This document shows, piece by piece, positions 7,466 through 16,628 of a stretch of 64,000 nucleotides of DNA. Under the pieces are notes generated by a model. The model did no database searches. It saw only the letters and a program-made list of their open reading frames with translations, and had not been told where the DNA came from. Positions within the stretch are counted from its first letter, which is position 1. Every line of letters begins with the position of its first letter. The position numbers and the translations under genes are program-made. Source of the DNA: a virus; the IMG/VR virus record IMGVR_UViG_3300037483_001148, positions 36,046 to 100,045 of that record; one strand, written 5' to 3'.

Positions 7466-7757
7466 ATTTCAAAACGGTGATGATCCCATGCAAATGGCTG
7501 AGAAGTTGGAATTAGCAGGATATACTAAAGAAGAGTGGGGGGGTGAAGAAGTATTTATAAAACAAGTTGGTGGCTTGCTGCTTAGGTGGCAGCTTGAGGA
7601 AACGATCATCATTGAAGTGCTTCGTATTGGCGGGGCGCTGATTGGCAACCAGCAAGTTTGCATCGTACATTTTGATAGCAGTTTTTATACTGATCCGGTA
7701 AGCAAATTTGAAGACGCAATTCTCGATATGTACAAGACATTAGAGGGGTTATTATGA
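7452..7757 (+). CDS. hypothetical protein
   Basis: ORF 7428..7757, probable ATG 7452. Confidence 0.6.
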   Translation: MWNLEFQNGDDPMQMAEKLELAGYTKEEWGGEEVFIKQVGGLLLRWQLEETIIIEVLRIGGALIGNQQVCIVHFDSSFYTDPVSKFEDAILDMYKTLEGLL

Positions 7758-8350
7758 TTAAGTTACAAGATTTCCCAAAGCAAGAGCATGTTAAGAGAGC
7801 TTTGGAAGTAGCAATGGTGGGGAAGCACTCTATTACTCTGATTGGCTCACCAGTGTCCGAAGGGAGAGAGCTTGTGGAATGGCTCAGGTGGTCTAAATAC
7901 CCCACCCCTGCATATTTTGTTTCCCCCTGCCCATGTGGGTATTTCGGTTTTCCTTCCAGGGAATGTACATGTTCAATTTCAATGGTGGGCCGACATCAAG
8001 CTAAGTATCTTAGCCGGGACACTGATATTTATGTTACCCTCAAAGAACTGTCCCCTGATGAAATAATAAACTTCATGCGGAACAAAAACCGAAATGAGGA
8101 AGAGGAGAAGGTTTATGAGCGAATCAAGTTAGCCAAAGCAATTGAAGCCCCCAGGCCGCTTGAATTAACCAGCACCGATTGGAATCTGCTGAAATCGGCT
8201 GTTTCACAACTCAATCTAAGTTTCTTTCAGGTTAAACAGATTCTTGTAGTTGCAAAGACCATTCAGCATATGGCATTAGTCTATAATACTGAGAGTTCAT
8301 TCATGCCGTACCTGGCCGAAGCTATTCAGTATAGGCCAAAGGTAGGATAA
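7754..8350 (+). CDS. miniaturised, internally deleted ComM/YifB (Mg-chelatase-related AAA+) homologue
   Basis: QEHVKRALEVAMVGKHSITLIGSP, PCPCGYFG...CTCS, LLKSAVSQLNLS...ILVVAKTI...LAEAIQYR match ComM/YifB blocks; Walker A degenerate, Walker B region absent. Confidence 0.8.
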   Translation: MIKLQDFPKQEHVKRALEVAMVGKHSITLIGSPVSEGRELVEWLRWSKYPTPAYFVSPCPCGYFGFPSRECTCSISMVGRHQAKYLSRDTDIYVTLKELSPDEIINFMRNKNRNEEEEKVYERIKLAKAIEAPRPLELTSTDWNLLKSAVSQLNLSFFQVKQILVVAKTIQHMALVYNTESSFMPYLAEAIQYRPKVG

Positions 8351-8947: not shown

Positions 8948-9093
8948 TGAAGATAATCTGGTTTATGCCACTATTGGTTGTATTTTTGTCTGTTGCGTGC
9001 GACTGTGAGCCAGGTGATCCGGCTCGCAACCCATGCCAAATGAGTCAAATTGAAATCCTGCAAGTAAAATGGAGCTACTATGTTAGCCACTAA
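8947..9093 (+). CDS. small putative lipoprotein (48 aa, not in ORF track)
   Basis: TGATG coupling; MKIIWFMPLLVVFLSVA-CDCEPGD... Confidence 0.5.
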   Translation: MKIIWFMPLLVVFLSVACDCEPGDPARNPCQMSQIEILQVKWSYYVSH

Positions 9094-11092
9094 AAAACTG
9101 AATAATATTAAAAAAGAAGTCGGGCGGGTTAATCACATCTGGATTTTTGACCGATCCGGCTCAATGAGTTGGGTAATCAAACAATTAGTTGAGGATATGA
9201 TTGAATTACAACGTGTTCTCAAGCCGGATGATACCCTTAGTGTTGGCTGGTTTTCCTCTGAAGGGGAATATAACTGGCTCATTAAAGGGTATGTAGTTGG
9301 TTCAATTGAGGGTGGGGTTGAAAAGCTGCTCAGAGCCAATAACACTTCATTGAACTTAACCTGCTTCAGTGAAATCCTGATTTCTACCAGCCAAGTGCTT
9401 CAGAATTTGAGCATTTTTAGCCCCCAGTTCTCCCTCATTTTCTTCACTGATGGTTATCCGGTAGTATCGAATTATCAACAAGAGGAAAATAACATCTTCA
9501 GAGCTATTTTTGACGTTGCCCCCGACATTGATAATTCTTTGCTCGTAGGGTATGGTGACTACTACAACAAACCTCTTTTAGTTCGGATGGCTCAGGCGTT
9601 TAATGGCGCTTTGATTCACTCATCTGACCTGGATTCCTACAAAGTCCAAAGCCGGACTTTTTTGGAAAATTTGACCCCCATGCAGCCAGTAGATTTGGAT
9701 GTTGACACCGAGCGCATCTATTTTACCCAAAAAGGAATGGTGACAGCTATGCCTGTTTTGGAAAGACACACATTTGTGCCAACCGGGGTGAAAGAAGTTT
9801 TTTATGAAACTGATCGAATCATGGTGCAATACGAGCCACCTTATGAGGCATGGTGTGCTGTAGCTGTCATTGCTCTTCAAGAAGCCGATGTTGAAAAAGC
9901 TATTGAAATGCTAGCAAAAACCGGCGATGTGTATTTGCTGGATTTAGCCAACAATGCCTTCACCAATCAAGACTTCGGCCAAGCGGAAAACGCCATTCGG
10001 GATGCTATTCAATATCCAGCCAAGCGTTTCCTAAGCGGTAAGGATTACAACTACCTCCCGGCTGATGACGCATTTTGTGTCTTGTATTTGCTGGAACTAC
10101 TTCAGCAAGACAAAAACGCCATGTTCTATCCCTACGACCCAATGTTCCATTACAAACGCACCGGGAAGAAGTCTAAGCAGCTTCCCGGCTATCCTCAATT
10201 TATCAAATCGGATGCTAATCCGGCCATTCCCCTGGAAGATTTGGTTTGGCATCAAACCAGAGCAAACATATCAATTCGCTGCCGGATTAACGGAGTAGTT
10301 GATATTGGCAAAAATGAGGTAGACTTGCCACCACACTTCTACACTCACATTTATCGCAACTATACTATCGTTAAAGATGGTAACTTGAATGTGACAATGC
10401 TGCCGGTATCTACTTCCAAACGAGTATTTGATGTTTTGAAGAAACACAACCTGGTCATGGGGAAATGGGAAAGCGGAAAAATCTACGCTGTTGACCTAGC
10501 CAAATTGCCGATCATTAACAAGGTCATCGCCAGAGGGTATAAGTCAGCAACGGCCCTATGTGAACGAGTCATGAGTGAAACTGAGGTCGAAGCGGGTTTG
10601 AAAGTCTACCGCCATTTTCTGAAGGAATTGCTACCGGAGAAACAAATTGAAGGGTATAAGCCAGAGCAGCAAATTTTCCTGAAAGAAAGAGGCATTACTT
10701 ACAACGGCTACAACCCGCCCACTGAGGATGAACCGGCTCAGGATTACTACTATGCCAAAGAGTTCAAGGTTGAAGTAGAAGGAATGAAATCATTGCCTTC
10801 GGTAAAAGAAGTTATGGAGAAAATGGAAGACGGTAAGAAACTCACAGGTCGCCAAGATTTACTCAGACCATTCATTGCCGATTTTCAGCTTCATGCAGAC
10901 GATAAGATTCCCTGGCTACAAGACCACATCGAATCAGCCAAAACGGAACTGTGGAATTTGCGGCGATACATTCAAAGAGCCAAGTTTGCCGTTATTGTCG
11001 GTAAGACATGGTTTGATGAACTAAAAGAACGGGAATGTGTTTTTGAGGGATGTTCATTATCATTCAAGGATAACACGAAAGTGGAATACTAA
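9080..11092 (+). CDS. vWA (MIDAS) domain protein with large C-terminal region
   Basis: IFDRSGSM (DxSxS), TCFSE, FFTDGYP. Confidence 0.85.
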   Translation: MLATKKLNNIKKEVGRVNHIWIFDRSGSMSWVIKQLVEDMIELQRVLKPDDTLSVGWFSSEGEYNWLIKGYVVGSIEGGVEKLLRANNTSLNLTCFSEILISTSQVLQNLSIFSPQFSLIFFTDGYPVVSNYQQEENNIFRAIFDVAPDIDNSLLVGYGDYYNKPLLVRMAQAFNGALIHSSDLDSYKVQSRTFLENLTPMQPVDLDVDTERIYFTQKGMVTAMPVLERHTFVPTGVKEVFYETDRIMVQYEPPYEAWCAVAVIALQEADVEKAIEMLAKTGDVYLLDLANNAFTNQDFGQAENAIRDAIQYPAKRFLSGKDYNYLPADDAFCVLYLLELLQQDKNAMFYPYDPMFHYKRTGKKSKQLPGYPQFIKSDANPAIPLEDLVWHQTRANISIRCRINGVVDIGKNEVDLPPHFYTHIYRNYTIVKDGNLNVTMLPVSTSKRVFDVLKKHNLVMGKWESGKIYAVDLAKLPIINKVIARGYKSATALCERVMSETEVEAGLKVYRHFLKELLPEKQIEGYKPEQQIFLKERGITYNGYNPPTEDEPAQDYYYAKEFKVEVEGMKSLPSVKEVMEKMEDGKKLTGRQDLLRPFIADFQLHADDKIPWLQDHIESAKTELWNLRRYIQRAKFAVIVGKTWFDELKERECVFEGCSLSFKDNTKVEY

Positions 11093-11156: not shown

Positions 11157-11561
11157 ATGTCTGACTGTGTGTACTACGCTCTAAACCAACATCTTAGATG
11201 GCTTAGGGTAAGTCCGGTTAGGGTATTTGGGGTATATAACCAGGTACGCTTTCTATCCGGCCATAAATGGAACGATGATACTTTTGCCGGGGTTGTACCT
11301 TACATGGCCTTCCAGCTTGCGAAAATTTATGATGACCTGACAGCCATTGTGGAGCGTAACCCTGACTTTGACCTGTTGGCTCAAGCTAACACAGCAGAGA
11401 AAAAGTTCATGGGGGACATGGGGACAAGCCCCATTACCCCTGGCCCTGGTGTTTATTGTGGTTATTTTTCAGCCCATGCTATCTTCTGGTCACATGAACA
11501 AATGCCGATTGGGGATACATGGGTATTATCAATTAAATTCAGGAGGTTAAAAAATGACTGA
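11157..11561 (+). CDS. hypothetical protein, possible minimal Cys-His (papain-like) peptidase
   Basis: N-terminal DCVYYAL helix and distal SAHAIFW strand; AGGAG RBS; overlaps the Ubl-like gene. Confidence 0.5.
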   Translation: MSDCVYYALNQHLRWLRVSPVRVFGVYNQVRFLSGHKWNDDTFAGVVPYMAFQLAKIYDDLTAIVERNPDFDLLAQANTAEKKFMGDMGTSPITPGPGVYCGYFSAHAIFWSHEQMPIGDTWVLSIKFRRLKND

Positions 11562-11895
11562 AGTATTGACGGTTCAAATTAGAGTTTTGTTTCCAAATAA
11601 CGCTACCCATCACGCTGGTGAATCGGTAGACGTTCCGGCCCATGAGGTTCTTCGAGAAAATGACGACCTGGCCTCAATGTCGGATGCTACCCTGGTTCAC
11701 CGAGTAGAGGCGTATCTGGATTTGCCGGAAGGGACGATGCACGGCATGATCGTGCAACGGCCTGAAGCCGGGAACATTCTCATTACTGCCAAGACCCGAT
11801 TCGGCAATTTTAGTTGTGGGTACTGCGGAGCTACTTTTAGAAACTACCTGGACCTTCGCAATCACTTGACAGTGAATCCCACCCACAGCATCTAA
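11554..11895 (+). CDS. putative ubiquitin-like (beta-grasp) protein fused to a C-terminal C2H2 zinc finger
   Basis: beta-beta-alpha-beta-beta pattern ending GNILITAKTRFG (G84), then C-x2-C-x3-F-x5-L-x2-H-x6-H; AGGAGG RBS; E1-like gene nearby. Confidence 0.65.
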   Translation: MTEVLTVQIRVLFPNNATHHAGESVDVPAHEVLRENDDLASMSDATLVHRVEAYLDLPEGTMHGMIVQRPEAGNILITAKTRFGNFSCGYCGATFRNYLDLRNHLTVNPTHSI

Positions 11896-11952: not shown

Positions 11953-12020
11953 ATCGTTCAACGGCAAGGGCGAACAAACACCAACAGCAAAAGTTTTTTA
12001 GCTCTTACTGCACAGAACGT
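11953..12020 (+). ncRNA. Y-RNA-like element A (minimal, no tRNA domain)
   Basis: CGTTC-AA-CGG-C-AAGGGC-GAACAAAC...GCTCTT-A-CTG-CACA-GAACG; same stem recurs in three downstream elements; upstream of Ro-like gene. Confidence 0.65.
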
Positions 12021-12038
12021 TACAGGATGGCGCGTTGA

Positions 12039-12118
12039 AAGGTAGGATTGACCGACTACCACAAATGCTGGATAAGAATGGTCGTTAAACATTAAACCCC
12101 AGTCACATCCGAAACCTT
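12039..12118 (+). ncRNA. unidentified structured RNA inside the cassette
   Basis: AAGGT/ACCTT, GGAT/ATCC, TGAC/GTCA, CGACTA/TGGTCG pairings. Confidence 0.35.
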
Positions 12119-12126
12119 AAAAATCA

Positions 12127-12268
12127 TTAACCGTTCGACTCTGGCAGCTTACAAACAGTATGGGTTCGATTCCCATATTCCAAGCTTCTTGGAATTAGCC
12201 TAATGGTAGGGCAACAGTCTTTCAAAAACTGTCTAAAAAATGCAGCTTTCAGTACATGGAACGGTTGA
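12127..12268 (+). ncRNA. Y-RNA-like element B (YrlA-like) with circularly permuted tRNA domain
   Basis: Outer stem TTAACCGTTC/GAACGGTTGA; order is T-arm ATGGG-TTCGATT-CCCAT, closed acceptor ATTCCAAG-CTT-CTTGGAAT, D-arm GCCT-AATGGTA-GGGC, anticodon arm ACAGT-CTTTCAAAA-ACTGT. Confidence 0.8.
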
Positions 12269-12275
12269 TACATAA

Positions 12276-12347
12276 TGTGGGGTAGAGCAGAGGTAGCTCG
12301 TCACGCTCATAACGTGAAGGTCGTGAGTTCGATTCTCACCCCCGCTA
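12276..12347 (+). tRNA. tRNA-Met(CAT), initiator-like
   Basis: TGTGGGG/CCCCGCT with 1:72 mismatch, GAGC/GCTC D-stem, TCACG-CTCATAA-CGTGA, GTGAG-TTCGATT-CTCAC; CCA not encoded. Confidence 0.9.
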
Positions 12348-12351
12348 CTAT

Positions 12352-12490
12352 GGCCTCCTAGCTAAAAATGCAATTGAAAGTAACCTAATCACAGAACGAG
12401 TTTCTCGTTCAACCTGGGGTACTTACAAACAATGGACAAAGCGTCAGTCTTAGGAACTGAAGAATCCTGGTTCGATTCCAGGGGAGGCCA
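12352..12490 (+). ncRNA. tRNA(TAG anticodon)-like RNA with a permuted Y-like module inserted in the D-arm (element D)
   Basis: GGCCTCC/GGAGGCC-A acceptor, TCAGT-CTTAGGA-ACTGA, CCTGG-TTCGATT-CCAGG; about 66-nt insert containing CACAGAACGAG-TTT-CTCGTTCAAC. Confidence 0.8.
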
Positions 12491-12491
12491 C

Positions 12492-12622
12492 TAATTCGTT
12501 CAACTCTAATGGCGAACAAACTTATGGTGCAGAGGTAGCACAACAAATTCATACTTTGTCGGTCGCAAGTTCGATTCTTGCTAAGTTTACCAAAAAACCG
12601 CCAATAGAACACAGAACGATTA
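12492..12622 (+). ncRNA. Y-RNA-like element E enclosing an intact tRNA
   Basis: TCGTTC-AAC-TCTA-A-TGGCG-AAC [tRNA] AAAAAC-CGCCA-A-TAGA-ACACA-GAACGA. Confidence 0.75.
12518..12592 (+). tRNA. tRNA with CAT anticodon (Met or Ile2), CCA encoded, nested in element E
   Basis: AAACTTA/TAAGTTT-A-CCA, GTGC-AGAGGTA-GCAC, ACAAA-TTCATAC-TTTGT, GCAAG-TTCGATT-CTTGC. Confidence 0.85.
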
Positions 12623-12690: not shown

Positions 12691-14169
12691 ATGGAACAAA
12701 ATACTGCCAGAAAGTTATTGTTCGACAATCTCCTAAAACTCCCCCACCGAGACTATAATGAATTAGTCCCCCACTTCTCCAAAGCAATGCTTGATGACCC
12801 CGATTTTACTTCCAAAGCAATGGTTTATCTGTTTACAACTTCAGTGATTCGAGATCAGCAAGACACGGCTGTTATTGCTCTCTTATCGTCACCAGCCCAT
12901 TTTGGCCTTCGAGATGCAGGTAAGGCTTTGTTCGGCCTGGACTTCTACAGAACTGCCAACACGACTGGTATGAAGGCTATGCCCCCATTTCGTCTGTTTC
13001 GCATCTTGCATTACCTTATGGGGTTTGGCCGGTACAAAGGTCAAAAAGCAATTAGTCCCCGACTGACCAGAACGTTGATGAATGACTACCTCACTTTCCT
13101 GGAATCTCATCCTGAGCGTTTTGATCGAGTCATTGCTCTCAATCGGCAAGAGGTTCATGATGCTTATGTCACCTTACATCGCAAACCTTCAGATCGAGTT
13201 AAGGCCATTGTGTTTGAAGACAATCCCCCCGAAGATTCCATTTTCTTTGCTATCAAGCAAGTTGGCCGGGAAGCTGACCCAATGGAAAAGGCAAGATTGG
13301 CAATGAAATTCAAGTTGCCTTATACCGTAGCTTCGGGCTTACTGCCCAAGAAAAACGCGGCAGCGCATGTGGCTCTCATTGATTTGATGTCGCCCACCGA
13401 AGCGGCCAATTCTATCGCCTGGGTAGAAAACTCAGGCGTGCTTGAAATCCCCGAAGTCAAAGCGGCTTTTGCCGCAAAGGTGGCAATGGCTAAGGACGTT
13501 ACCAGCCTGAAGCATCGAAAAAGTAGTGCATCCAAAAATGAAGCTGTTCAGCAAGCCGTATCTCAGGCCAGAGAAAAAGCTACGAGCGAAGCCAAGAAAA
13601 TCACCAAACGGGTTTTGCTCAACATTGATCGTTCCGGCTCAATGCGGCCAGCAATTGAAGTAGCTAAGGAATTTGCCGCTTTTTTAGGGGCAAGGCTGGA
13701 ATCACCTGATTTGCTCTATATGGTGGCTTTTAACGACATGGCTACTCGAATTAAGCCCCGTTCTCTGGCCTTGAGCGATGTTGAAGCAGCTTGCATGCTT
13801 ATAAAGGATAACGGGGCAACGTGTTTGGGAGTTGGGATTCAGACCGCTTTAGCAGATGGATTTGAACCGGAGGTTATTGTAACCCTCAGTGATTTTGAGG
13901 AAAACCGTAGACCCTCGTATTTGGAAATGGCCTCTAAGGTTGATTGCCAGCATGTGTTCATTGGCTTGGGCAACTACAAAGGGTATGCCCAGGCTTATAC
14001 TAATTCAGTGGAAAGCAAAGGGCATGCGGTATCGTTCTTTCCCTACATGGCTTCAGGACGTAATGACTATTACCTGTTTGAGCAAATAGCGGCTATTTTG
14101 GCTGGTCAGGGGAAAAAGAGTTTGGTCCAGGCTATTTTGGATATTGAACTGCCGTATGTGGTGAAGTAA
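12691..14169 (+). CDS. divergent Ro60/TROVE-like helical domain plus C-terminal vWA protein
   Basis: About 300-aa helical N-region (LPHR, DPDF..KAMVYL...IRD, LPYTVA, MSPTE) then LNIDRSGSM, GAT, LSDFEEN MIDAS; Ro60 size and layout; adjacent Y-like RNAs. Confidence 0.75.
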   Translation: MEQNTARKLLFDNLLKLPHRDYNELVPHFSKAMLDDPDFTSKAMVYLFTTSVIRDQQDTAVIALLSSPAHFGLRDAGKALFGLDFYRTANTTGMKAMPPFRLFRILHYLMGFGRYKGQKAISPRLTRTLMNDYLTFLESHPERFDRVIALNRQEVHDAYVTLHRKPSDRVKAIVFEDNPPEDSIFFAIKQVGREADPMEKARLAMKFKLPYTVASGLLPKKNAAAHVALIDLMSPTEAANSIAWVENSGVLEIPEVKAAFAAKVAMAKDVTSLKHRKSSASKNEAVQQAVSQAREKATSEAKKITKRVLLNIDRSGSMRPAIEVAKEFAAFLGARLESPDLLYMVAFNDMATRIKPRSLALSDVEAACMLIKDNGATCLGVGIQTALADGFEPEVIVTLSDFEENRRPSYLEMASKVDCQHVFIGLGNYKGYAQAYTNSVESKGHAVSFFPYMASGRNDYYLFEQIAAILAGQGKKSLVQAILDIELPYVVK

Positions 14170-14170
14170 A

Positions 14171-14341
14171 ATGGATACCTTCATAAACTTGACGGTTCTG
14201 ATTGCGGCAGTTTGGCTTATTCAACAGGGTTTGGTAATGAACACTTCAAACTTTCAATCGGCTCTGTATTTTAAGGTGATTCCATTTTCTATAGGCTTGG
14301 CCTGTCTATGGTCAGCCGGAAAACTGTTTGGGTGGATATGA
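14171..14341 (+). CDS. small membrane protein (56 aa, not in ORF track)
   Basis: MDTFINLTVLIAAVWLIQQGLV...PFSIGLACLWSAGKLFGWI; ATGA overlap with next gene. Confidence 0.55.
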   Translation: MDTFINLTVLIAAVWLIQQGLVMNTSNFQSALYFKVIPFSIGLACLWSAGKLFGWI

Positions 14342-14643
14342 AACTATTTTGGATTTTTTCTTGCATTGCAATGAGAATTAGTGGTGAACATGTTGAAGCA
14401 AATCATTTTCCATTTATAACAGAAGGAAAAGATAAAGCAGAGGCTACAACCTATGCTTTGGGGAAAACCTTAATGCAGTATAATCCATCCGACGATTGGG
14501 TTAGCCATCAAGTGACTCCATTAGAGATTTCCCCCAAGTGGTTAGTCGATGCGCTAACGGATGAGCAACGGCTAGAACTGTTTTCCAATTATTGCTTCCA
14601 TTGTGGTTCAAAAAATCTTCCCTGTCAGTGTCAAACGAGGTAA
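14338..14643 (+). CDS. hypothetical protein with C-terminal Cys cluster
   Basis: CFHCGSKNLPCQC; ATGA coupling. Confidence 0.6.
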   Translation: MKLFWIFSCIAMRISGEHVEANHFPFITEGKDKAEATTYALGKTLMQYNPSDDWVSHQVTPLEISPKWLVDALTDEQRLELFSNYCFHCGSKNLPCQCQTR

Positions 14644-14645
14644 AA

Positions 14646-14789
14646 ATGTATCTAAAATTAGGTCCGTTTGCAATAAACGTTAAAATGTATGAACTGATAA
14701 TTGTGTGTATGTCCTTAGTTCTTCTCTGTGCTGGCTTAACCGGCATAGTTAGAGCAATAGTACCTCTATTCATAAAATGTCTTTATTAA
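14646..14789 (+). CDS. small membrane protein
   Basis: GAGGT RBS; one hydrophobic helix. Confidence 0.5.
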   Translation: MYLKLGPFAINVKMYELIIVCMSLVLLCAGLTGIVRAIVPLFIKCLY

Positions 14790-15649
14790 ACGTTCTGAAC
14801 AAGCTAAGTGAACATATCCCCCAACCATTCTTAGCCCCTATCCCTCAGTCTGAAATAGTCTCCTGCTTTACTTTGCAGGAGACTATTCCTTATTGGTTTC
14901 ATCTAACCAACCCTCAACCTGGCTGGTGGTGGTTAAAACCGCATAGAAATGAAGCTGTCTTAAACCGGGAAGCTGAACCTCACGAATATCTATCTTACCT
15001 CTCACAGTTACCTCGCTGGATCGTCATTGTGATAGAGCAAAACCAGCATGGGGTAGTAGTAGTTCCTTACAATGCCTCAGATGCGACTCAACGCGGCTGG
15101 CTTAACTCTGAGCCTCGTTATGTCTATCTCACCAGAAAAGTCCAGCTTCAGACTTTTTCTGTTGTCTGTGTTAGAAACATGGCCGGAACGCTTCTATTTG
15201 ATGATTTCTATCCTTTAGATATAGAAGTGCAAAAAAAGTTGACAGATGGGGTAAACGAACAAAGGCCAGTAGTTGTGCCAGGCCATTTTAGTGTGGTATG
15301 GCAAATCGCTTTCCGGCGAATGGCCGAAGAAAGAGATCGTCAACTAAAAGAAGAAATCGAAAGAAAACGAAAGGAAGCGCAACTAACCGAAGAAGGCCGG
15401 ATTAGATACCGACTGGAATATGTTGGGGCTGAATTAGTTGAATATAAAAAACGAGGGGAACGATTTGATGTCACTTATGAGTACAATGGAGCAAGATTCA
15501 CCATGAATGTTAGACCCGACATGAGGATTGAGAGTGCCGGGATTTGTCTTTCGGGTGAAGATTCTAACCATGATCTATCATCCATTGTACTTACTATGGA
15601 ACGAGCCAGAGAGTTGCACAGACCGGGGATTGAGAGGTATCACCTATGA
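14777..15649 (+). CDS. conserved-looking protein with putative E2-like (Ubl-conjugating) C-terminal Cys motif
   Basis: C-terminal strands then IESAGICLSGED (C257), similar to the G-x-ICL active-site segment of UBC folds; coiled-coil linker; next to ThiF gene. Confidence 0.5.
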   Translation: MSLLNVLNKLSEHIPQPFLAPIPQSEIVSCFTLQETIPYWFHLTNPQPGWWWLKPHRNEAVLNREAEPHEYLSYLSQLPRWIVIVIEQNQHGVVVVPYNASDATQRGWLNSEPRYVYLTRKVQLQTFSVVCVRNMAGTLLFDDFYPLDIEVQKKLTDGVNEQRPVVVPGHFSVVWQIAFRRMAEERDRQLKEEIERKRKEAQLTEEGRIRYRLEYVGAELVEYKKRGERFDVTYEYNGARFTMNVRPDMRIESAGICLSGEDSNHDLSSIVLTMERARELHRPGIERYHL

Positions 15650-16059
15650 CTGTACCTGAATGGGCAATTGATTACATCCAATATTGGCGGGATATTTTAC
15701 TTCTACAAGAATGGCAATTTTTTACCAGCCTGACCGATGAGCCATTAGGCGATAGCCAAAATTTGGCCGGAGTGAATGTTCAAGCTGATTATGTCACGGC
15801 TCGAATTGAAATAAGGGATGACATTCCGGTTAATATAGAAGAAGCTGATGCACTCGACCAGTACAGATGGAAAAAGACGATCATCCATGAATTGGTGCAT
15901 GTAAGGCTATATCGAATTACCTGTTTTGTGCAGGACAACATATTTCCCGAACTAGGCCAGTCACTCTATGGGATAATTAGCAGGCAATTTAAGCAAATGG
16001 TTGAGCCAACAGTCGAAATTTTAACTGAAATCCTATACAGTCTGAGTGAGGCAAAATGA
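15646..16059 (+). CDS. zincin-like metallopeptidase (HExxH)
   Basis: TIIHELVHV with a distal Glu helix (VEPTVEIL). Confidence 0.7.
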   Translation: MTVPEWAIDYIQYWRDILLLQEWQFFTSLTDEPLGDSQNLAGVNVQADYVTARIEIRDDIPVNIEEADALDQYRWKKTIIHELVHVRLYRITCFVQDNIFPELGQSLYGIISRQFKQMVEPTVEILTEILYSLSEAK

Positions 16060-16628
16060 TTATTTTATGCGGTTGTGGCTCAGTTGGATCAAAGATTGCT
16101 CTTGAGCTATCAAGTTTGGATAATGAGTGGATACTTATTGACGATGATGAAATTGAGCCTGAGAATGTTCCTGTCTCAGCATATCTCCATGACCAAATTG
16201 GTCAAACTAAAGTAATAGCTCTGGCTGAATTGCTATGGCGTAAAAATAGGGTAATCGCCAAACCCTACTCAAAAACACTCAGCCGGAATGTTCACCAAAT
16301 TTTTCCAGATGGATTGGTAATTGAAAGTTTTGACAATCCGGCAGCAAGGTTGCTTACCATCAACCCATTTAAGCATGCAGACCATCCGGTAATTCACATC
16401 GGCGTAGATTTAGGTGAAGTAGGCTCAGTAGTTTGGGATGTTCATTACAGGTTGCCGGAGATTGATTTCAACCGAGGTAACAACCCCGTTTGCACGAGGC
16501 AAGCCGGGGCTAATATCATTAGGTTTACTGTTACCATAGCGGTTTATGCCATAAGTCAATACTTAAGCAATGTAGTTAAAAACAGTTATTTTATCAATAA
16601 TGGAATGATAGTGAGGATGAACAAATGA
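16056..16628 (+). CDS. ThiF/MoeB/E1-family adenylyltransferase
   Basis: IILCGCGSVGS Rossmann loop, LIDDDEIEPEN, IGQTKVIAL, ESFDN..AR; candidate catalytic Cys146 (NPVC). Confidence 0.85.
   Translation: MIILCGCGSVGSKIALELSSLDNEWILIDDDEIEPENVPVSAYLHDQIGQTKVIALAELLWRKNRVIAKPYSKTLSRNVHQIFPDGLVIESFDNPAARLLTINPFKHADHPVIHIGVDLGEVGSVVWDVHYRLPEIDFNRGNNPVCTRQAGANIIRFTVTIAVYAISQYLSNVVKNSYFINNGMIVRMNK

What the first reader, a model, noticed from the sequence alone, without database searches (positions are those of the whole stretch)
11554..11895. Ubl-like protein made as a precursor fused to a classical C2H2 zinc finger
The beta-grasp-like part ends at TRFG84 and is followed in frame by a 29-aa tail matching C-x2-C-x3-F-x5-L-x2-H-x6-H. 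E1 enzymes need a free C-terminal Gly, so cleavage after G84 would be required, releasing a nucleic-acid-binding finger. This parallels eukaryotic ubiquitin-ribosomal zinc-protein fusions and could act as a proteolytic on-switch.
Basis: partly seen in the sequence, partly recalled or inferred. Interest (0 to 1): 0.75.

Follow-up and report, generated by a model that had tools for sequence, protein, structure and literature searches.

The report
Phage ubiquitin-like precursor, zinc-finger tail
A phage gene encodes a small ubiquitin-like protein whose conserved end-glycine is followed by a 29-residue zinc finger, so it is probably made as a precursor that must be trimmed before the neighbouring activating enzyme can use it; such trimming is ordinary, but a folded zinc-finger tail is unusual.

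Summary
ORF 11554-11895 (+) encodes 113 residues: a predicted beta-grasp domain ending TRFG84, then a tail matching C-x2-C-x3-F-x5-L-x2-H-x6-H.

In 34 aligned family members, 32 keep this Gly. Eleven end exactly on it, 8 carry 1-4 extra residues and 13 carry unrelated longer tails. Only one other member (66% identical) has the C2H2 tail.

Five other phage loci share the gene order: small Ubl, Ro60-like vWA protein, OB/Cys protein, peptidase, ThiF-type E1. Their Ubls end FG, FG, FG, WG or FGNG, and their peptidase is a Prok-JAB. This window has no JAB. An unclassified 137-aa HExxH protein sits in the JAB's place.

So the gene is best read as the precursor of an E1-activated modifier whose tail must be removed after G84. 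Cleavage, the peptidase, zinc binding and nucleic-acid binding are all inferred, not shown. The window's E1 is also divergent and lacks conserved N-terminal residues.

Trimming of prokaryotic Ubl precursors is published (BilA/BilC, BubAB/BubCD). This scan had already noted the Ro60-Ubl module and removable Ubl tails on other DNA. What is new is a folded C2H2 finger as the tail: a new variant of a known kind.

The parts
11541..11546 (+). Shine-Dalgarno-like AGGAGG box before the Ubl gene
   Evidence: Read directly from the sequence.
11554..11895 (+). Whole ORF: Ubl-zinc-finger precursor, 113 aa plus stop
   Evidence: Homologues.
11554..11805 (+). Ubl (beta-grasp-like) domain, residues 1-84, ending TRFG84
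11806..11892 (+). 29-residue C-terminal tail, residues 85-113. The C2H2 finger core C88-H111 is at 11815-11886.
   Evidence: Pfam zf-C2H2 families at E 6e-4 to 1.5e-3, below cut-off. Predicted beta-beta-alpha layout. Ligands and core residues kept in P0002. Pattern unique in the window.
11157..11561 (+). Upstream 134-aa ORF whose stop overlaps the Ubl start; function unknown
   Evidence: No Pfam, PHROG, NCBIfam, PADLOC or PDB match. Atlas neighbours are viral hypothetical proteins.
11954..12619 (+). Small-RNA array between the Ubl gene and the Ro60-like gene (context only; array limits taken from earlier scan notes)
   Evidence: Two tRNAs at 12276-12348 and 12518-12592 (ARAGORN; Rfam 61.9 and 65.8 bits). 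A weak third tRNA and a weak YrlA match are below gathering score. The rest of the array was not analysed here.
12691..14169 (+). Ro60/TROVE-like protein with a vWA domain
   Evidence: Pfam VWA_2 27.1 bits against a cut-off of 27. A profile of three orthologues hits human Ro60 9nen at E 1.1e-6 and TROVE proteins at E 1.3e-3.
14777..15649 (+). OB-fold protein whose C-terminal domain carries the invariant motif A-G-x-C-L-x-G-x-D (C257)
15646..16059 (+). 137-aa HExxH protein (H81-E82-x-x-H85), the candidate Ubl-processing metallopeptidase, in the position where relatives have a JAB
   Evidence: Motif read. Its ends overlap both neighbouring genes by 4 nt. Weak hits only (phrog_1233 E 0.0074; GtgA/GogA metalloprotease E 0.048). 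Relatives carry Prok-JAB at this position.
16056..16628 (+). ThiF-family E1-like adenylating enzyme, 190 aa
   Evidence: Pfam ThiF 29.9 bits against a cut-off of 28.1. NCBIfam ThiF PRK08644 at E 5e-14. MccB adenylation domain at E 1.7e-5. A divergent member of a family with more than 2000 hits.

Best explanation
[quoted passage not shown] Residues 1-84 form a beta-grasp domain with a flexible tail ending in Phe-Gly. An E1 adenylates a free C-terminal carboxylate, so the 29-residue C2H2 tail must first be cut off between G84 and N85. The likeliest peptidase is the HExxH protein (15646-16059), which sits where five related loci encode a Prok-JAB peptidase.

Shown here: the family, the conserved Gly, the variable ends, the synteny and the predicted folds.

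Inferred only: cleavage, the identity of the peptidase, adenylation by the E1, the modifier's target, and any role of the released finger as a cap, a folding or targeting aid, or an RNA/DNA binder.
For: 1. Family ends. Of 34 aligned members, 32 have Gly in the G84 column. Eleven stop exactly there, 8 have 1-4 extra residues and 13 have unrelated tails of 5-127 residues. Nothing is conserved after the Gly. That is the pattern of Ubl precursors.

2. Synteny. Five further phage loci (L002, L010, L011, L013, L014) have the order Ubl, Ro60-like, OB/Cys protein, Prok-JAB, ThiF. Their Ubls end FG, WG, FG, FG and FGNG. The JABs score 32.6 and 30.2 bits against a cut-off of 25.

4. E1. Pfam ThiF is above its cut-off. 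The GxGxxG, D29/D31, K52, FDNxxxR and C146 positions are kept.

5. The tail is not an accident. P0002 (66% identical) keeps both Cys, both His and the F/L core residues.

6. Published precedent. BilC trims BilA after its conserved Gly and cleaves a BilA-GFP fusion, and Type II BilA homologues carry up to nine residues after that Gly (PMC10557695). The BubAB Ubl-E2 fusion is cleaved after G229 by the JAB domain of BubCD (PMC11601596).
Against: - No cleavage, adenylation or conjugation was observed.
- The window has no JAB in its 100-kb record, which is about 80% complete.
- The HExxH protein matches no peptidase family.
- The window's E1 is the most divergent member of its family (23-30% identity). 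It lacks the N-terminal segment of about 25 residues with near-invariant H, E, Y and R, and it has NVPVSA where the family has NLNTQ, so it may be impaired.
- The Ubl family has no Pfam or PDB sequence relative.
Confidence: 0.6

Rival explanations
1. The protein is never cleaved. It acts as one polypeptide, with a beta-grasp adaptor joined to a zinc finger, for example as an RNA/DNA-binding or Ro60-particle-binding factor. In this phage the conjugation chemistry would have decayed.
For: No JAB in the record. The E1 is truncated at its N-terminus and lacks residues conserved in the family. The HExxH protein is unclassified. The tail is a compact predicted fold, not a short cap.
Against: The Gly and the flexible K-T-R-F-G linker are kept exactly as in relatives that end there. 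The OB/Cys protein, HExxH, E1 and next genes are intact, with 4-nt overlaps between them. The E1 keeps its nucleotide- and Mg-binding positions. P0002 shows the same junction.
Confidence: 0.2
2. The Ubl is mainly a sulfur carrier, like ThiS, MoaD, TtuB or Urm1. The E1 adenylates and thiocarboxylates it to thiolate the neighbouring tRNA-like RNAs, rather than to tag proteins. The tail would still have to be removed.
For: The E1 is a single-domain ThiF whose nearest named models are ThiS adenylyltransferases. No confirmed E2 was found. tRNA genes and a Ro60-like RNA binder lie next to it. From general knowledge, TtuB and the SAMPs do both jobs.
Against: The terminus is [FYW]G, not the GG usual for sulfur carriers. 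No sulfurtransferase, rhodanese or TtuA-like gene was recognised among the locus ORFs scanned. JAB peptidases in the relatives fit deconjugation as well as trimming.
Confidence: 0.15
3. The fusion is an artefact: an assembly or sequencing error, or a recent loss of the stop codon that reads through into meaningless sequence.
For: Most relatives stop at or near the Gly.
Against: The tail forms a complete C2H2 pattern, found once in the window and never in 100 shuffles. It is conserved in P0002 from another assembly. A second assembly of the region is identical (probably the same sample).
Confidence: 0.03

Closest known systems
Bacterial Bil (BilABCD) and Bub (BubAB/BubCD) ubiquitination-like systems (PMC10557695, PMC11601596)
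   Same: A small beta-grasp modifier with a conserved C-terminal Gly, made with extra residues or a whole domain after it. A dedicated peptidase in the same operon removes this before E1 adenylation. In Type I Bub the removed part is a functional domain (an E2).
   Different: - The E1 here is a 190-aa single adenylation domain, not IAD-AAD-CYS or a fusion.
- No recognised UBC-type E2 was found.
- The peptidase is not a JAB in this window.
- The tail is a C2H2 finger.
- The system is phage-encoded and tied to a Ro60-like protein and small RNAs.
E2-independent prokaryotic Ubl systems: archaeal SAMP/UbaA/HvJAMM1 and Thermus TtuB/TtuC (recalled from general knowledge, not read here)
   Same: A small Ubl plus a single-domain ThiF-type E1 plus a JAMM/JAB peptidase (in the five related loci), with no obvious E2 or E3. 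There is a possible link to tRNA biology.
   Different: - The terminus is [FYW]G rather than GG.
- No sequence similarity was detectable.
- The conserved partners, a Ro60-like protein and an OB/Cys protein, are not part of those systems.
Eukaryotic ubiquitin-ribosomal protein fusions (UBA52, RPS27A; general knowledge)
   Same: Ubiquitin is made with a small, zinc-binding, nucleic-acid-associated protein fused directly after its last Gly, and the two are separated by proteolysis.
   Different: This is an analogy only. Those tails are ribosomal proteins with Cys4-type sites, processed by cellular DUBs. Here the tail is a single C2H2 finger of unknown role, seen in two of 34 family members.
Classical C2H2 zinc fingers (Pfam PF00096, PF13894)
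   Same: The ligand spacing C-x2-C-x12-H, the conserved F and L core residues and the predicted beta-beta-alpha fold.
   Different: - Scores are below the Pfam cut-offs.
- The His-His spacing is 6 here and 5 in P0002, against the usual 3-5.
- It is a single finger at the end of a phage protein.

Membership tests
Ubiquitin-like modifier (beta-grasp protein activated at a C-terminal Gly by an E1) | Beta-grasp fold | tested here: met
Ubiquitin-like modifier (beta-grasp protein activated at a C-terminal Gly by an E1) | Conserved Gly at the end of a flexible C-terminal tail, exposed or followed by a variable removable extension | tested here: met
   Gly is present in 32 of 34 members: 11 end on it, 8 have 1-4 extra residues and 13 have unrelated longer tails. 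The five syntenic Ubls end FG, WG, FG, FG and FGNG.
Ubiquitin-like modifier (beta-grasp protein activated at a C-terminal Gly by an E1) | Genomic linkage to an E1-like adenylating enzyme | tested here: met
   A ThiF gene lies in the same co-oriented cluster in all six loci examined.
Ubiquitin-like modifier (beta-grasp protein activated at a C-terminal Gly by an E1) | Adenylation by the E1 and transfer to a target | not testable with these tools
   This needs biochemistry.
Classical C2H2 zinc finger (Pfam PF00096 / PF13894) | Cys2-His2 ligands with the conserved aromatic and Leu core spacing | tested here: met
   F86-x-C88-x2-C91-x3-F95-x5-L101-x2-H104-x6-H111. All of these are kept in P0002.
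Classical C2H2 zinc finger (Pfam PF00096 / PF13894) | Score above the curated Pfam cut-off | tested here: inconclusive
   20.7 bits against 27 and 19.3 against 25.2, at E 6e-4 and 1.5e-3. A single short finger rarely reaches the cut-off.
Classical C2H2 zinc finger (Pfam PF00096 / PF13894) | Beta-beta-alpha fold and zinc binding | tested here: inconclusive
   The AF2 secondary structure fits (two short strands, helix 98-107; pLDDT 65-83). The finger alone was not fold-searched, and zinc binding needs experiment.
Bil/Bub-type bacterial ubiquitination systems | UBC-like E2 with a catalytic Cys (or Ser) in the operon | tested here: inconclusive
   The OB/Cys protein has an invariant A-G-x-C-L-x-G-x-D motif after a four-strand sheet. 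It gave no UQ_con Pfam hit and no E2 among the fold or PDB hits, which the OB domain dominated. The C-terminal domain was not searched alone.
Bil/Bub-type bacterial ubiquitination systems | E1 with IAD-AAD-CYS architecture (Bil), or fused to a peptidase or E2 (Bub) | tested here: not met
   The E1 is a free-standing single ThiF domain of 190 aa, about 215 aa in relatives.
ThiF/E1 adenylating enzymes (Pfam PF00899), for ORF 16056-16628 | Pfam score above cut-off, with nucleotide- and Mg-binding motifs | tested here: met
   29.9 bits against 28.1. GxGxxG, D29/D31, K52, F-D-N-x3-R and C146 are kept. The N-terminal segment and the NLNTQ motif of its own family are missing.
JAB/JAMM Ubl peptidase | A JAB domain gene in the locus | tested here: not met
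   Nothing in the 100-kb record matches PF14464 at E 1 or better. The five related loci do have one.

The most novel reading that the evidence does not exclude
The C2H2 finger is not a throw-away cap. It would be an RNA- or DNA-binding address that docks the inactive Ubl precursor on the phage's Ro60-like particle or its tRNA-shaped RNAs. A zincin-type (HExxH) peptidase that has replaced the usual JAB would then cut at G84. The active modifier would be released only at that site, and a free finger protein would be released with it. This would be a nucleic-acid-gated switch for ubiquitin-like tagging in a virus of bacteria.
Probability: 0.1. Interest if true: 0.8.

Novelty: new variant of a known kind. 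Interest (0 to 1): 0.5.

Why it matters
Ubiquitin-like modifiers made as precursors are textbook in eukaryotes and were shown recently in bacteria. This phage family shows the same logic with very varied tails on one conserved modifier: a C2H2 finger, a DnaJ-type CxxCxGxG cluster, other Cys-rich segments and hydrophobic segments. That suggests the tail is a swappable module, not just a cap.

This copy gives a clean test case: a 113-residue precursor, a defined scissile bond (G84-N85), a candidate non-JAB peptidase and a cognate E1, all within 5 kb. It also belongs to a Ro60-like/Ubl cassette for which I found no description in the papers I could search. Working out what the tail does could help explain how that cassette joins RNA binding to protein tagging.

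Tried and rejected
Whether tails go with HExxH peptidases is therefore unknown.
- The search for related loci with the Ubl alignment found nothing in viral, genome or metagenome collections. A2 was too diverse to search with. The E1, the 670-aa vWA protein and the first pattern choice for the Cys protein also found nothing. A hand-made degenerate pattern and the Ro60-like profile did find loci.
- tblastn against 50,697 phage records: no match for the Ubl or ORF 11157, and only a weak one for the HExxH protein (E 0.1).
- Foldseek on the Ubl model: no hit at E 0.001 or better.
- Atlas look-ups for ORF 11157 and the Cys protein gave nothing usable.
- PDB profile searches for the Ubl family and the Cys protein gave only chance-level rows.
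- E2 identity of the Cys protein: neither shown nor excluded. The resemblance of G-I-C-L to the canonical E2 active site is from memory only.
- I checked whether the E1's missing N-terminus is hidden upstream in its frame. There are several stops, so it is not.
- No RNA holder was listed among the sequencing runs. Run X2 covered only the tRNA.
- ORF 11157 as a Cys-His peptidase was rejected as unsupported.
- 'Relatives' cannot be drawn for a virus record.

Full report
**What is there**

ORF 11554-11895 on the + strand encodes 113 residues. An AGGAGG box precedes it, and its start overlaps the stop of ORF 11157-11561. Residues 81-84 are TRFG.

That pattern occurs once in the six-frame translation of the window and never in 100 shuffles. 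Pfam's C2H2 models match residues 86-106 at E 6e-4 and 1.5e-3, below their curated cut-offs. A second assembly of the region is identical. It probably comes from the same sample, so it only argues against a local assembly error.

**The family and its ends**

A word-indexed search and an exhaustive HMMER search found a family of small proteins with no Pfam domain and no sequence relative in the PDB. The exhaustive search also listed many eukaryotic multi-finger proteins. These match only the tail.

In an alignment of 34 members (A2):
- 32 have Gly in the column of G84, usually after Phe or Tyr.
- 11 end exactly at that Gly.
- 8 have one to four more residues.
- 13 have longer tails that are unrelated to one another.

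Only P0002 (66% identical) shares the C2H2 tail. It keeps both Cys, both His and the Phe/Leu core, with His-x5-His. Other long tails include a fourfold CxxCxGxG cluster (P0006), other Cys/His-rich segments (P0029, P0043) and hydrophobic, membrane-like segments (P0025, P0051).

**Fold**

AlphaFold2 on the 11-sequence alignment gives mean pLDDT 79.6. It predicts a beta-grasp-like body, a short linker, then two short strands and a helix for the finger.

**Neighbourhood**

Downstream on the same strand lie:
- a small-RNA array with two tRNA genes;
- a Ro60/TROVE-like vWA protein, whose profile hits human Ro60 at E 1.1e-6;
- a 290-aa protein;
- a 137-aa HExxH protein;
- a 190-aa ThiF-family enzyme, with Pfam above cut-off and the nearest solved relative being the MccB adenylation domain.

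The last three genes overlap by 4 nt each.

**Synteny**

tblastn and pattern searches led to five other phage loci: LR756511.1 and four IMG/VR contigs of 84-390 kb. All have the same order: small Ubl, Ro60-like protein, the 290-aa protein's homologue, a peptidase, ThiF.

Their Ubls are 71-92 residues long and end FG, WG, FG, FG and FGNG. The window's Ubl aligns to the LR756511.1 one at 24% identity (E 4e-4), with FG on FG. In all five loci the peptidase is a Prok-JAB, for two of them 32.6 and 30.2 bits against a cut-off of 25.

The E1 and the 290-aa protein both belong to large metagenomic families, with more than 2000 and at least 379 hits. Among the listed hits the contig lengths of the two families coincide in about twenty cases, so the two genes appear to travel together.

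**What differs in this window**

- **No JAB.** None is found in the 100-kb record (the record is about 80% complete). The HExxH protein sits exactly where the JAB lies elsewhere, but it matches no peptidase family. Its only hints are weak.
- **A divergent E1.** It is the most divergent member of its family. It lacks about 25 N-terminal residues that carry near-invariant H, E, Y and R, and it has NVPVSA for NLNTQ. It keeps GxGxxG, D29/D31, K52, FDNxxxR and C146. The missing part is not hidden upstream.

**Mechanism**

An E1 adenylates a free C-terminal carboxylate. That is established for ThiF, MoeB and the Uba enzymes. The family's near-invariant Gly is the natural end in most members, so the most economical reading is that the 113-residue product is a precursor. 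Cutting between G84 and N85 would give the active modifier and a free 29-residue finger.

Published bacterial systems do the same:
- BilC trims BilA after its conserved Gly and cleaves a BilA-GFP fusion (PMC10557695).
- Comparative genomics had predicted Ubls lodged in larger proteins being released by JAB peptidases (PMC7159879).

I put 0.6 on the precursor reading. Rivals are:
- an uncleaved adaptor-finger protein in a decaying system (0.2);
- a sulfur-carrier role, which would still need trimming (0.15);
- an artefact (about 0.03).

Nothing here shows that the finger binds nucleic acid or that cleavage is regulated.

**Comparison and novelty**

The module works like E2-independent or Bil/Bub-type prokaryotic Ubl systems, but it is not a member by sequence or architecture. 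The E1 is a single domain, the terminus is [FYW]G, and its partners are a Ro60-like protein and an OB/Cys protein.

I found no paper linking Ro60-like proteins to Ubl machinery. A jumbo-phage survey mentions ROT/TROVE proteins only with RNA repair (PMC7824862; searches).

Notes of this same scan describe the Ro60-Ubl-OB-JAB-E1 module in many other genomes, and removable Ubl tails in some. So neither the cassette nor the precursor idea is new to the scan.

What is particular here is a folded C2H2 finger as the tail, together with an HExxH protein in the JAB's place. I rate this a new variant of a known kind, interest 0.5.

Noticed in passing
window 16056-16628: The ThiF/E1 lacks the N-terminal segment of about 25 residues (near-invariant H, E, Y, R) found in more than 30 aligned relatives. 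It also has NVPVSA where they have NLNTQ. Several stops lie upstream in its frame, so the missing part is not hidden there. It may be impaired, or it may rely on a partner.
   Followed up: partly
P0006, P0029, P0043, P0025, P0051 (alignment A2): Other members of the Ubl family carry quite different tails after the conserved Gly: a fourfold CxxCxGxG (DnaJ-type) zinc cluster, other Cys/His-rich segments, and hydrophobic membrane-like segments. The tail looks like a swappable module.
   Followed up: partly
window 14777-15649; L010 10475-11416; L011 9587-10534: This conserved cassette protein is predicted to have OB folds resembling the N-domains of proteasomal ATPases (PAN, Mpa, Rpt) and S1/eIF1A-type RNA binders. 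It also has a C-terminal domain with the invariant motif A-G-x-C-L-x-G-x-D. Its role as E2 analogue, target or RNA binder is open.
   Followed up: partly
window 14308-14643: The C-terminus of this 111-aa ORF (C-F-H-C-G ... C-x-C) weakly resembles the Cys-rich C-terminal end of the JAB protein of LR756511.1 (tblastn E 0.009). It might be a remnant of a lost JAB gene, or the match may be chance.
   Followed up: no
L002 14302-14946; L010 12869-13546; L011 11832-12332: The huge-phage loci share a further conserved ORF between JAB and E1, with N-terminus M-S-R-x-F-V-x-I-[ST]-V-x-E-L-K. No counterpart was detected in the window.
   Followed up: no
window 9080-11092: This 670-aa protein belongs to phrog_2426 (E 3.7e-126). 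tblastn finds it in 501 phage records (Klebsiella, Salmonella, Escherichia, Rhizobium and Bacillus PBS1 phages), one of them annotated as a vWA protein. It is probably unrelated to the Ubl cassette.
   Followed up: partly
window 7754-8350: This 198-aa ORF matches only the ends of YifB/Mg-chelatase-like AAA proteins: the N-terminal 32 residues and the C-terminal lid. The ATPase core appears to be missing.
   Followed up: no
window 12159-12212 and 12417-12490: There is a weak YrlA (Y RNA-like) match (22.5 bits, gathering score 69) and a third, sub-threshold tRNA match (26.8 bits) in the RNA array between the Ubl and Ro60-like genes.
   Followed up: no
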